Source: a virus
Virus genome (UHGV): UHGV-1557986
Direction: 5' to 3' (one strand)
Length of the DNA stretch: 30,395 bases
The position numbers and the translations under genes were made by a program. Positions 9,229 through 10,203 of the stretch are shown piece by piece (the stretch's first letter is position 1; the number at the start of each line of letters is the position of its first letter). The notes beneath the pieces were generated by a model. That model saw nothing but the letters and a program-made list of their open reading frames with translations. It made no database searches and was not told the DNA's origin.

Positions 9229-10203
9229 TTATCCGTTACCGCGCGACGGTTTCTGCGTGACAAACGTCTCAAGCATCTTTTCCGCAATTGCCGACCAGGT
9301 GTGACACTGGACCTTTTCAGCATTTTTCACGCGATCAACGCGAGCAATAACCTCATCCCAATCAATCCGCGACTTGATAACCATATGGTTCACCAAAGCC
9401 AGGCGATCTGGCGGAAGGCAATCGGGAGGCGTTAATACCAACGCCCCGCACATTGCCGCCTCAAGTACAGTTAATCCAAGGCTTTCGGGATGCGTAACGA
9501 TAAACACGTCACTCTTACGCAATTCAGCTGCAAATTCGGTTGCTGGCACCGGCGTCCGTCTGTATGGAGTTACCGAAATATTCCCCGGATCAATGGTAAC
9601 CAATCCGTCATCAGTCAACGTTCTGGCCTCATACGGAACGGTCAGACGCTGAAGGTTCATAAGGATACTTAAGGAGTGATCAAAACCACTAACATCAAAT
9701 GCAGCGTGGTCTACAAAAATACGCAGAACATCGTCTGTTTTGGTTTCCAGATGGAACAGATCCTGATTCGCTGCCCATCCAACATGTTTGTTAAAACGAT
9801 TATGACGCTCTAACCTGCCTGGATTATCCAGGTACCGCCAGGTATCATCGCGGACAGTAAAAGTAATATCGACTGGTGCCGAATCCAGCATAGAACCGTC
9901 GTATACCTGGGCTACCCATCCAGTGAATCGACGACGCAGTTGCACGCCTATTTCCCTGGGCACCGTAGTAAAATACCGCAATCCTGGCGCTAAAATGGCT
10001 TTCGCAGAACACGAGGTCGCAGCGGTCAACACAGCTTCAACATAATCCTCCGGGCTTTCGACGCCGGGGGAATATGGACGATGGTATTGCAATGTTACCC
10101 CTGCCTCACTAAAGGCGCAGGCCAGGTTGTAAGCCCACATTTCCGTATATGTTTTCACATCACTGATAGCTTCAAATTTTCGCCCAATGATCAGGATGTT
10201 CAT
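9229..10203 (-). CDS. GT-B fold glycosyltransferase (GT1/GT4-like), about 324 aa; start placed at MNILIIG with GAGGA SD
   Basis: C-terminal motif DVFIVTHPESLGLTVLEAAMCGALVL typical of GT-B donor-binding domains; begins immediately after the ban stop. Confidence 0.55.
   Translation of the reverse strand: MNILIIGRKFEAISDVKTYTEMWAYNLACAFSEAGVTLQYHRPYSPGVESPEDYVEAVLTAATSCSAKAILAPGLRYFTTVPREIGVQLRRRFTGWVAQVYDGSMLDSAPVDITFTVRDDTWRYLDNPGRLERHNRFNKHVGWAANQDLFHLETKTDDVLRIFVDHAAFDVSGFDHSLSILMNLQRLTVPYEARTLTDDGLVTIDPGNISVTPYRRTPVPATEFAAELRKSDVFIVTHPESLGLTVLEAAMCGALVLTPPDCLPPDRLALVNHMVIKSRIDWDEVIARVDRVKNAEKVQCHTWSAIAEKMLETFVTQKPSRGNG

What the first reader, a model, noticed from the sequence alone, without database searches (positions are those of the whole stretch)
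9229..10203. GT-B glycosyltransferase translationally coupled to the ban helicase gene
The glycosyltransferase start lies within a few nucleotides of the ban stop, placing it at the 3' end of the C1-controlled tRNA-tci-ban operon and convergent with the baseplate operon. A sugar transferase co-expressed with an early replication function is unexpected and could mark lysogenic conversion or a nucleic-acid modification role.
Basis: partly seen in the sequence, partly recalled or inferred. Interest (0 to 1): 0.4.

Follow-up and report, generated by a model that had tools for sequence, protein, structure and literature searches.

The report
P1 dbn: a split glycosylation cassette
The gene is phage P1's already-annotated dbn, a real sugar transferase; its position after the ban helicase gene looks accidental, because in other phages it sits beside homologues of three further sugar-transferase genes that P1 keeps 6-8 kb away.

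Summary
Window 9229-10203 (-) is an intact 324-codon gene that starts 24 nt after the stop of a DnaB-type helicase gene and converges on baseplate gene 5 across a two-way terminator hairpin. It is not new: it is 97% identical to P1 dbn ("possible glycosyltransferase"), P7 glt and RCS47 Dbn.

The link to ban is not conserved. 14 of 83 P1-like loci have another ORF between ban and dbn, more distant P1 relatives have no ban nearby, and no other phage pairs it with a helicase.

What is conserved is a partner set. In 15 of 15 non-P1 phage loci a PmgQ homologue (GT8-like) lies nearby, usually directly downstream. PmgO/PmgP homologues (sialyltransferase/Maf-like) often lie upstream, and one natural PmgO-Dbn fusion exists. 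P1 keeps pmgO, pmgP and pmgQ at window 736-3294.

Most likely Dbn is one enzyme of a lytic-cycle glycan-building module. The target is unknown: virion proteins are favoured and host envelope glycans are the main rival. Lysogenic conversion and DNA modification are disfavoured.

The parts
9229..10203 (-). dbn coding sequence, 324 aa: a GT4-like GT-B glycosyltransferase. An alternative upstream ATG at 10227 would give the 332-aa form annotated in P1.
10201..10229 (-). ban-dbn junction. ban stop TAA at 10227-10229, overlapping ATG at 10225-10227, GAGGA Shine-Dalgarno at 10211-10215, conserved start ATG at 10201-10203.
   Evidence: Sequence. The junction is identical in 67 of 83 P1-like loci. It is replaced in 14 loci where another ORF's TGA overlaps the same ATG.
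10227..11597 (-). ban, a DnaB-type replicative helicase gene immediately upstream of dbn.
   Evidence: Pfam DnaB_C 1e-107 and DnaB 3e-35. Matches P1 ban.
9182..9208 (.). Two-way intrinsic terminator hairpin between the gene 5 stop (9180-9182) and the dbn stop (9229-9231).
   Evidence: Folding gives dG -18.5 kcal/mol, z -3.9, an 11-bp stem and U-runs on both strands.
8550..9182 (+). Gene 5 (baseplate protein), convergent with dbn.
   Evidence: ORF. P1 annotation.
14403..14430 (.). Bivalent C1 operator Oban (Op72ab) at the head of the tRNA-tci-ban-dbn operon.
   Evidence: Pattern search gives 0 and 2 mismatches, with a chance expectation of 0.04 matches per window. P1 annotation.
2632..3294 (-). 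pmgO, 220 aa, a Cst-II/Maf-like (MptE-like) putative CMP-ulosonic-acid transferase. Its homologues lie upstream of dbn homologues in other phages.
   Evidence: tblastn E 1e-38 to 1e-41 to L008 and L010 cassette genes. Profile against PDB: Cst-II 2e-6, Maf 4.5e-4. Natural fusion P0229.
2108..2734 (-). pmgP, 208 aa, a paralogous MptE/Cst-like transferase.
   Evidence: 51-54% identity to L008 and L010 cassette genes. Alignment A5. Pfam MptE-like, weak.
736..1437 (-). pmgQ, 233 aa, a GT8-like GT-A glycosyltransferase with a DLD motif (YLDLDTV). Its homologue lies directly after dbn homologues in most other phages.
   Evidence: tblastn 40-48% identity to L008 and L010, about 30% to the large-phage loci. 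AlphaFold pLDDT 94.5. Foldseek top hits are GT8 enzymes. Profile against PDB: 6mw5 4e-7, glycogenin 5e-5.
1434..2126 (-). ppp, a lambda-type Ser/Thr phosphatase inserted between pmgP and pmgQ. Probably not part of the module.
   Evidence: Pfam Metallophos 8e-15. Absent from the pmgO-pmgP-pmgQ block of L102 and L103.
3435..3451 (.). Oppp (Op83)-like C1 operator upstream of pmgN-pmgO-pmgP-ppp-pmgQ. It is weak, with 4 mismatches to the consensus.
   Evidence: Alignment to the annotated P1 operator.

Best explanation
The gene is the orthologue of phage P1 dbn. It encodes a soluble, cytoplasmic, GT4-like (retaining-type) GT-B glycosyltransferase. It is transcribed from the C1-repressed ban operon after prophage derepression or infection and translated from the ATG at 10203, just after ban.

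Its position behind ban is a lineage-specific accident. Functionally it belongs with three other P1 genes 6-8 kb away: pmgQ (GT8-like GT-A transferase) and pmgO and pmgP (Cst-II/Maf-like transferases that probably use a CMP-activated ulosonic acid; CMP-Kdo is the only such donor in E. coli K-12). In other phages these genes form one contiguous cassette with a Dbn-PmgQ core. In P1 the cassette is split.

Together the enzymes would assemble a short glycan in the cytoplasm during lytic growth. The acceptor I consider most likely is one or more virion proteins, as in mycobacteriophage virion glycosylation. The function is accessory and dispensable for plaque formation.

Shown: fold, motif, orthology, purifying selection, conserved neighbourhood, one fusion, operon layout.
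Inferred: joint action, donor sugars, acceptor, timing.
For: Identity and fold.

Selection and prevalence: intact in 77 of 78 loci with dN/dS 0.12; full length in 436 PLSDB plasmids against 477 that carry the P1 baseplate genes.

Conserved partners.
- All 15 non-P1 phage loci have a PmgQ homologue in the flank. In 11 it starts within about 60 nt of the Dbn stop.
- These loci cover large marine-type phages (L004, L006, L094-L099), a P2-like phage (L008), a lambda-like phage (L010), three high-GC siphophages (L011, L100, L101), L104 and the P1 relatives L102 and L103.
- PmgO/PmgP homologues flank Dbn in L008, L010, L011, L101 and L104, and the window's pmgO, pmgP and pmgQ match them at E 1e-38 to 1e-64.
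- Protein P0229 is a natural PmgO-like plus Dbn-like fusion (E 4e-24 to window PmgO).
- Bacterial polysaccharide loci L012 and L170 end in an adjacent [MptE-like][Dbn-like] gene pair.

Partner folds: PmgQ is GT8-like. PmgO/PmgP are Cst-II/Cst-I/Maf-like.

Embedding in late or structural operons.
- L101: capsid E, then PmgO-like, Dbn, a PmgQ+PmgO fusion, a TylF O-methyltransferase, a PIG-L deacetylase, a sulfotransferase, then tail genes.
- L011 and L100: the cassette lies between the head-tail connector and the head-closure gene, with FkbM methyltransferase and (in L011) sulfotransferase genes.
- L008: the cassette begins at the portal stop codon.
- L010: it lies directly upstream of the terminase genes.

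Precedent: tandem glycosyltransferase genes plus an O-methyltransferase gene glycosylate capsid and tail-tube proteins of mycobacteriophages (Freeman et al. 2023, as cited in PMC11600133, and PMC12619734).

Shared phenotype: dbn, pmgO, pmgP and pmgQ are all non-essential in the P1 CRISPRi screen and in the knockouts it cites (PMC10695390).

Regulation: both P1 operons carry C1 operators.
Against: - No glycan has been reported on P1 virions. The P1 virion proteome paper (PMC9024508) and a 2026 P1 head cryo-EM paper (PMC12810830) mention none.
- The only cellular homologues found sit in ABC-transporter-dependent polysaccharide loci. The family can therefore act on lipid-linked glycans.
- The enzyme classes (GT4, GT8, WaaZ/MptE-like) mirror those of the E. 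coli LPS-core waa locus, and the LPS core is P1's own receptor (from my own knowledge, not tested here).
- In P1, dbn is in an early operon, while pmgO, pmgP and pmgQ can also be read from a late promoter, so co-expression is plausible but not shown.
- Position inside structural operons does not prove a structural role, because accessory 'moron' genes also sit there.
Confidence: 0.42

Rival explanations
1. Host envelope remodelling. Dbn, PmgQ and PmgO/PmgP act at the cytoplasmic face of the inner membrane on LPS core or another lipid-linked glycan during lytic growth. This would alter or mask the LPS-core receptor, reducing superinfection or the loss of progeny phage to cell debris.
For: - The two cellular contexts of Dbn homologues are ABC-transporter polysaccharide or capsule loci with an adjacent MptE-like gene (L012; L170).
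- The L012 neighbour has a faint WaaZ_KDO_III hit.
- GT4, GT8 and a Kdo-transferase-like enzyme are the classes found in the E. coli waa locus, and P1 adsorbs to the LPS core (both from my own knowledge).
Against: - Dbn has no membrane-spanning segment and an acidic pI of 5.7, although peripheral membrane binding is not excluded.
- In at least five phage lineages the cassette is overlapped with portal, connector or capsid genes rather than placed as an independently expressed gene.
- LPS made late in a lytic cycle would have little time to replace LPS already on the surface (inference).
- Sulfotransferase, O-methyltransferase and deacetylase partners are not typical of core modification.
Confidence: 0.28
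2. Lysogenic conversion, one of the first reader's suggestions. Dbn is expressed in the prophage state from its own promoter and changes the host surface.
For: - The P1 record lists two predicted sigma-70 promoters (P1dbn, P2dbn) inside ban. One is recovered as a 9-of-12 match at 10837-10864.
- In the P2-like phage L008 the cassette lies next to a KAP NTPase at a locus that often holds cargo genes.
Against: - Promoter-like sites are fewer than in shuffled sequence (3 found, 6.0 expected).
- The operon is headed by a perfect bivalent C1 operator. From my own knowledge, ban is silent in wild-type lysogens.
- The partner genes also sit behind C1 operators or late promoters.
- There are no Gtr-type membrane components.
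- Purely lytic-looking large phages carry the same core pair.
Confidence: 0.07
3. Nucleic-acid modification. Dbn glycosylates phage DNA or a tRNA of the same operon.
For: - The operon carries three tRNA genes and lies next to dmt.
Against: - Known DNA glycosylation needs a hydroxylated or hydroxymethylated pyrimidine made by a thymidylate-synthase homologue (PMC13326640). No such gene is recorded within 10 kb of the cassettes whose gene calls carried Pfam annotation.
- The DNA enzymes are weaker structural matches than ordinary GT4 enzymes.
- The partner enzymes (sialyltransferase/Maf-like, GT8, sugar O-methyltransferase, sulfotransferase, PIG-L) are glycan-building and glycan-tailoring enzymes.
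- From my own knowledge, P1 DNA is cut by ordinary restriction enzymes.
- tRNA genes are not linked to Dbn homologues in other phages.
Confidence: 0.05
4. Replication-linked role. Dbn acts on or with the Ban helicase, which would explain the tight coupling.
For: Only the adjacency and the overlapping stop and start codons in P1.
Against: - 14 of 83 P1-like loci have another ORF between the two genes.
- L102 and L103 have dbn without ban.
- No DnaB gene is recorded beside Dbn in any of the other phage loci.
- Dbn homologues overlap whichever gene precedes them.
Confidence: 0.02

Closest known systems
Bacteriophage P1 Dbn (YP_006544), P7 Glt and RCS47 Dbn
   Same: Same position between ban and gene 5. 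96.5-99.3% DNA identity. Same length and the same annotation as a possible or putative glycosyltransferase.
   Different: Nothing material; this is an allele of the same gene. The GenBank start codon is 8 codons upstream of the start supported by homologues. The P7 record has a stop at codon 22.
GT4-family retaining GT-B glycosyltransferases (PimA, PimB', BshA, GlgM, sucrose-phosphate synthase, WaaG, WaaB)
   Different: - Sequence identity is only 10-16%.
- The Pfam score is below the gathering threshold.
- I did not see the usual G-rich N-terminal loop or the GR...K phosphate-binding motif when reading the alignment; a family-specific VDH and GWAAD are conserved instead.
- The family profile finds only 423 proteins among 1.84 billion representatives and does not pull in ordinary GT4 enzymes.
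Mycobacteriophage virion-glycosylation genes (Che8, Corndog and Myrna type; Freeman et al. 2023)
   Same: Tandem phage glycosyltransferase genes with O-methyltransferase genes, dispensable for growth. Homologous cassettes here lie inside head and tail gene blocks with FkbM or TylF methyltransferases.
   Different: No sequence relationship to those enzymes was tested. The hosts are Gram-negative. The cassette includes sialyltransferase/Maf-like enzymes. No glycan has been seen on P1 virions. In P1 the genes are split between two operons.
E. coli LPS-core (waa) enzymes WaaG/WaaB (GT4), WaaO/WaaJ/WaaR (GT8) and WaaZ (Kdo III transferase)
   Same: The same three enzyme classes occur as in the P1 set of Dbn, PmgQ and PmgO/PmgP. 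WaaB and WaaG are structural matches. A WaaZ_KDO_III-like neighbour lies next to a Dbn homologue in L012.
   Different: There is no close sequence similarity, and these are not the best structural matches. The parallel is one of enzyme class only and comes from my own knowledge of the waa locus.
T4 alpha- and beta-glucosyltransferases and other phage DNA glycosyltransferases
   Different: There is no pathway for a modified base. The partner genes differ, and the structural match is weaker.
Seroconverting Gtr systems (GtrA, GtrB, Gtr-type) of temperate phages
   Same: A temperate phage-encoded sugar transferase that could change the host surface.
   Different: Gtr systems use integral-membrane proteins and a bactoprenol-linked sugar in the periplasm, and are expressed in the lysogen. 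Dbn is soluble (maximum 19-residue hydropathy 1.5) and is repressed by C1.

Membership tests
P1 dbn orthologue group (PHROG 2518) | High sequence identity to P1 Dbn | tested here: met
   97.5% DNA identity to NC_005856 dbn. 97% protein identity to cluster P0001. phrog_2518 E 9e-233.
P1 dbn orthologue group (PHROG 2518) | Position between ban and baseplate gene 5, last gene of the Op72-controlled operon | tested here: met
   The same arrangement is found in 429 of 483 PLSDB hits.
GT-B fold glycosyltransferase, GT4-like (Pfam Glycos_transf_1) | Two Rossmann-like domains with an inter-domain cleft | tested here: met
   [not shown]
GT-B fold glycosyltransferase, GT4-like (Pfam Glycos_transf_1) | EX7E motif in the C-terminal domain | tested here: met
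   HPESLGLTVLEAA: E240 is invariant and E248 is present in at least 90% of 69 homologues.
GT-B fold glycosyltransferase, GT4-like (Pfam Glycos_transf_1) | Score above the Pfam gathering threshold | tested here: not met
   25.0 bits against a cut-off of 26.4, with only the C-terminal half matched. The close cluster representative P0001 does carry a precomputed PF00534 hit. This is borderline.
GT-B fold glycosyltransferase, GT4-like (Pfam Glycos_transf_1) | Canonical N-terminal Gly-rich loop and Arg/Lys phosphate-binding residues | tested here: inconclusive
   I did not see these motifs when reading the alignment. Family-specific invariant residues are D102, W143, A144, D175, F234, T237, H238, E240 and S241, with D165, H166 and R216 in at least 90%. 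No residue-level superposition was available.
GT-B fold glycosyltransferase, GT4-like (Pfam Glycos_transf_1) | Sugar-nucleotide-dependent transferase activity with retention of configuration | not testable with these tools
   Needs an enzyme assay.
Phage virion-glycosylation cassette (mycobacteriophage type) | Several glycosyltransferase genes, with or without an O-methyltransferase gene, clustered in or beside virion structural genes | tested here: inconclusive
   Met in the homologous cassettes of L011, L100, L101, L008 and L010. In the window the four transferase genes are split (dbn at 9229-10203, pmgO/P/Q at 736-3294), flank the baseplate/tail operon, and have no methyltransferase.
Phage virion-glycosylation cassette (mycobacteriophage type) | Glycans covalently attached to capsid or tail proteins | not testable with these tools
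   No report was found for P1. No Ser/Thr-rich tails are seen on neighbouring capsid or tube proteins.
Phage DNA glycosyltransferase system (T4 AGT/BGT type) | Phage-encoded synthesis of a hydroxymethylated or hydroxylated pyrimidine (thymidylate-synthase homologue) to serve as acceptor | tested here: not met
   No such Pfam family is recorded among the called genes within 10 kb of the cassettes. The requirement is described in PMC13326640.
Gtr-type seroconversion system | Integral-membrane GtrA/GtrB/Gtr-type proteins expressed from the prophage | tested here: not met
   Dbn, PmgO, PmgP and PmgQ have no hydrophobic segment (maximum 19-residue hydropathy 1.25-1.53). Both operons sit behind C1 operators.
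Known anti-phage defence systems (PADLOC) | Match to a PADLOC model | tested here: not met
   No hits for Dbn, PmgO, PmgP or PmgQ.

The most novel reading that the evidence does not exclude
P1, the classic transducing phage, and many unrelated phages carry a previously unrecognised conserved glycosylation module. Its core is a Dbn-type GT-B enzyme plus a PmgQ-type GT8-like enzyme, often with two Cst-II/Maf-like CMP-ulosonic-acid transferases and glycan-tailoring enzymes. The module would decorate virion proteins with a Kdo-containing (or other ulosonic-acid-containing) glycan. To my knowledge that would be the first virion glycosylation system in a Gram-negative model phage, and it has gone unnoticed because P1 splits the cassette between the ban operon and the pmg operon.
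Probability: 0.3. Interest if true: 0.7.

Novelty: already known. Interest (0 to 1): 0.38.

Why it matters
As stated, the finding rediscovers an annotated P1 gene, so by itself it changes nothing. The comparative result is more useful. It assigns four P1 genes of unknown function (dbn, pmgO, pmgP, pmgQ) to a single glycan-building module. The same module recurs in P2-like, lambda-like, siphovirus-type and very large phages.

This gives a simple experiment in the most tractable system available: compare virion proteins and host LPS between wild-type P1 and a quadruple deletion. If virions are glycosylated, it would bear on phage immunogenicity, stability and host range, and on P1-based delivery vectors. 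If LPS is the target, it would be a new receptor-masking mechanism.

Tried and rejected
- Literature. I found no functional study of dbn or of pmgO, pmgP or pmgQ. The only results were essentiality tables and one transcriptome remark. The P1 genome paper and Freeman et al. 2023 are not held in the library.
- First scan of viral contigs with the family alignment returned only P1-like loci. Re-ordering the alignment with a distant member first gave 11 diverse loci.
- The scan of 185,579 species genomes gave only 4 hits. The family is rare in cellular genomes, and the Brucella loci lack PmgQ.
- I looked for Ser/Thr-rich C-terminal tails on capsid and tail-tube proteins next to the cassettes as a sign of O-glycosylation. 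None was obvious.
- I tested whether the GT-A-like C-terminal domain of fusion protein P0310 is PmgQ-like. It is not supported (hhalign probability 0.4%).
- NCBIfam and PADLOC gave no hits for any of the four proteins.
- An independent promoter for dbn inside ban: one 9-of-12 match, but promoter-like sites are fewer than chance in that region.
- The Oppp operator is not found at 3 or fewer mismatches. Alignment to P1 shows it is present with 4 mismatches.
- I considered a tRNA-glycosylation idea (queuosine sugar transferases are GT4-like, from my own knowledge). I dropped it because tRNA genes are not linked to Dbn homologues elsewhere.
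Full report
**What is at the coordinates**

The minus strand carries an ORF at 9229..10227. Two in-frame ATGs could start it.
- The first, at 10227, overlaps the TAA of the upstream gene as TAATG.
- The second, at 10203, is preceded by GAGGA seven bases upstream.

All homologues from other phages begin at the second Met (MK/NxLxI...). Among 83 P1-like loci the sequence upstream of the second ATG takes two main, unrelated forms, while the ATG itself is kept.

The upstream gene, 10227-11597, is a DnaB-family helicase (Pfam DnaB_C 1e-107). Downstream, baseplate gene 5 (8550-9182, plus strand) converges on the ORF. The 46-nt spacer folds into an 11-bp GC-rich hairpin flanked by U-runs on both strands (dG -18.5 kcal/mol, z -3.9). 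This is a two-way terminator.

Further upstream on the same strand lie:
- a tRNA(CAT) gene, a TerB-like tciA gene, and tRNA-Thr and tRNA-Asn genes;
- a perfect bivalent C1 operator at 14403-14430.

**It is a known gene**

Megablast finds the region in 18 phage records at 96-99% identity. The annotations are:
- P1: dbn, 'function unknown, possible glycosyltransferase';
- P7: glt, 'putative glycosyltransferase';
- RCS47: 'putative glycosyltransferase, Dbn'.

The gene 5-dbn-ban arrangement covers at least 80% of the query in 429 of 483 matching PLSDB plasmids from Escherichia, Salmonella, Klebsiella and Shigella. Full-length dbn is in 436 records, against 477 that carry the P1 baseplate genes.

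Across the 78 P1-like loci from which full-length dbn was recovered, the gene is intact in 77. The P7 record has a stop at codon 22, which explains its shorter annotation. Mean dN/dS is 0.12, compared with 0.05 for ban. The gene is real, under purifying selection, and nearly a core gene of P1-like phage-plasmids.

CRISPRi knock-down, and the knockout studies that paper cites, classify it as non-essential for plaque formation (PMC10695390).

**Is it a GT-B glycosyltransferase?**

Yes.
- Pfam Glycos_transf_1 matches the C-terminal half at 25.0 bits, just under the 26.4 cut-off.
- An AlphaFold model built on 69 homologues has mean pLDDT 95.
- The GT4 hallmark EX7E is present as HPESLGLTVLEAA. The first Glu is invariant and the second is in at least 90% of sequences.

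The family is nevertheless a small, sharply bounded offshoot.
- Its profile finds 423 proteins at E <= 1e-3 and 196 at E <= 1e-30 among 1.84 billion cluster representatives. It does not reach ordinary GT4 enzymes.
- Only 4 loci were found in one genome each of 185,579 bacterial and archaeal species.
- PHROGs lists the family as 'unknown function'. NCBIfam has no model for it.

**Is the link to ban meaningful?**

No.
- In 14 of 83 P1-like loci a 100-codon ORF of unknown function lies between ban and dbn, and its TGA overlaps the dbn ATG.
- In two 90-97 kb P1 relatives (L102 and L103, Dbn 57-59% identical) there is no ban within 10 kb of dbn.
- No other lineage pairs a Dbn homologue with a DnaB gene.
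- Dbn homologues overlap whichever gene precedes them: a portal-linked PmgO-like gene in L008, a connector gene in L011, and a pyruvyl-transferase gene in L004.

Close spacing to ban is ordinary operon packing. Translational coupling remains plausible but would say nothing about function.

**What is conserved instead**

I read the surroundings of homologues at 30-59% identity and compared their neighbours with each other and with the window.

A roughly 220-residue protein follows the Dbn homologue in nearly every phage.
- It is in the flank in all 15 non-P1 phage loci.
- It starts within about 60 nt of the Dbn stop in 11 of them.
- Its homologue in the window is the ORF at 736-1437, which is P1 pmgQ (40-48% identity to the enterobacterial-type phages, about 30% to the large marine-type phages).

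In a P2-like phage (L008) and a lambda-like phage (L010) two further genes precede Dbn. They match window 2632-3294 (P1 pmgO, E 1e-38 to 1e-41) and window 2108-2734 (P1 pmgP, E 1e-53 to 1e-64). PmgO-like genes also flank Dbn in L011, L101 and L104. In L101 one of them is fused to the PmgQ-like gene.

In the P1 relatives L102 and L103, pmgP and pmgQ are contiguous, preceded by pmgO in L102, without the ppp phosphatase gene that interrupts them in P1. There dbn lies 5-9 kb further along the same strand.

One metagenomic protein, P0229, is a natural fusion of a PmgO-like domain (E 4e-24 to the window's PmgO) and a Dbn-like domain.

The two cellular contexts are a capsule locus (L012) and a Brucella pseudogrignonensis ABC-transporter polysaccharide locus (L170). 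Both end in an adjacent [MptE-like][Dbn-like] pair. Those MptE-like proteins align with PmgO and PmgP through shared GSGPS, IAVN and NS...G.D motifs.

**What the partners are**

- PmgQ has no Pfam hit. Its profile matches GT8 enzymes in the PDB (Skp1 alpha-galactosyltransferase 4e-7, glycogenin 5e-5). Its model (pLDDT 94.5) is closest to the same GT8 set, including LgtC, WbbM and GlyE. It has an invariant DLD motif.
- PmgO and PmgP have weak MptE-like Pfam hits. Their joint profile matches Campylobacter Cst-II (2e-6), Cst-I (1e-4) and the flagellin glycosyltransferase Maf (4.5e-4). These enzymes use CMP-activated nine-carbon sugars.
- From my own knowledge, E. coli K-12 makes only one CMP-activated ulosonic acid, CMP-Kdo. 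Kdo is therefore the likeliest donor there. This is inference.

P1 thus encodes four putative glycosyltransferases of three classes. In other phages they form one cassette.

**Where the cassette sits in other phages**

- L101: terminase, portal, ClpP protease, major capsid protein E, PmgO-like, Dbn, PmgQ+PmgO fusion, TylF-type sugar O-methyltransferase, PIG-L deacetylase, sulfotransferase, then tail genes.
- L011 and L100: the cassette lies between the head-tail connector and the head-closure gene, with FkbM methyltransferase genes and, in L011, a sulfotransferase gene.
- L008: it begins at the stop codon of the portal gene.
- L010: it directly precedes the terminase genes.
- Large-phage loci: it is joined to a sugar nucleotidyltransferase, a pyruvyl transferase and other transferases.
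- P1: the record places pmgN-pmgO-pmgP-ppp-pmgQ behind the C1 operator Op83, which is present in the window with 4 mismatches. A late promoter lies upstream of pmgL.

All four P1 genes are dispensable.

**Most likely mechanism**

Dbn is a cytoplasmic retaining glycosyltransferase made after derepression. It works with PmgQ and PmgO/PmgP to assemble a short glycan.

I favour virion proteins as the acceptor, for three reasons.
- The cassette is repeatedly overlapped with head and connector genes.
- Its companions are glycan-tailoring enzymes.
- There is an established precedent in mycobacteriophages, where tandem glycosyltransferase genes and an O-methyltransferase gene modify capsid and tail-tube proteins (Freeman et al. 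2023, as cited).

The evidence against is real.
- No P1 glycoprotein has been reported.
- No Ser/Thr-rich tails are seen on neighbouring structural proteins.
- The cellular relatives act in lipid-linked polysaccharide pathways.

The main rival is remodelling of the LPS core or another envelope glycan during lytic growth. The enzyme classes mirror the E. coli waa locus, and the LPS core is P1's receptor (from my own knowledge).

Three other readings are disfavoured.
- Lysogenic conversion is unlikely because of C1 control and the absence of a credible internal promoter.
- DNA modification is unlikely because no modified-base pathway accompanies the cassette and the DNA enzymes are poorer structural matches.
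- A role with the helicase is contradicted by the variable neighbourhood.

**Verdict**

The gene is the annotated P1 dbn, and its 'unexpected' placement after ban is not functionally informative.

The useful new point is that dbn belongs to a conserved multi-enzyme phage glycosylation cassette that is split in P1. I could not find this stated in the searchable literature. The module's target is unknown and can be tested directly in P1.

Noticed in passing
L032 9702-10004 (also L034, L036, L037, L041, L043, L045, L054, L056, L058, L060, L064, L069, L077): In 14 of 83 P1-like loci a 100-aa ORF lies between ban and dbn, and its TGA overlaps the dbn ATG. It has no Pfam or PADLOC hit.
   Followed up: partly
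L002 (P7, AF503408), dbn codon 22: The P7 record has a premature stop early in dbn. This explains its shorter 'glt' annotation (864 nt). It may be a real mutation or a sequencing error.
   Followed up: partly
window 14221-14240 (-): A strong terminator-like hairpin followed by T7 lies about 170 nt downstream of the Oban operators and before the tRNA genes. It could be an attenuator at the head of the ban operon.
   Followed up: no
window 1434-2126 (-): ppp (a lambda-type Ser/Thr phosphatase, Metallophos 8e-15) interrupts pmgP and pmgQ in P1-type genomes. In the P1 relatives L102 and L103 those two genes abut directly.
   Followed up: partly
proteins P0229, P0281, P0298, P0303, P0305, P0316, P0320, P0265: The Dbn family includes several fusions. 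P0229 is PmgO-like plus Dbn. P0281 is Dbn plus a Methyltransf_11 domain. Several forms of about 530 aa carry an unassigned C-terminal domain of about 200 aa. P0265 is a tandem duplication.
   Followed up: partly
window 11878-11953 (-): ARAGORN reads this tRNA as tRNA-Met (anticodon CAT). The P1 record annotates the equivalent gene as tRNA-Ile2 (lysidine-dependent), and RCS47 annotates it as tRNA-Met.
   Followed up: no
L008 7644-11708 (-): In the P2-like phage the glycosylation cassette is followed by a 1354-aa KAP-family NTPase, at a position where P2-like phages often carry cargo or defence genes.
   Followed up: no
window 2632-2734: The pmgO and pmgP ORFs overlap by about 100 nt as listed. 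The same is annotated in P1, so one start codon may be mis-assigned.
   Followed up: no
[not shown]
   Followed up: no
Dbn model me9647f2f17f7: The best viral structural neighbour is a Tupanvirus soda lake glycosyltransferase (A0A6N1NPH0, TM 0.80, 18% identity). It matches far better than any other viral structure in the library.
   Followed up: no
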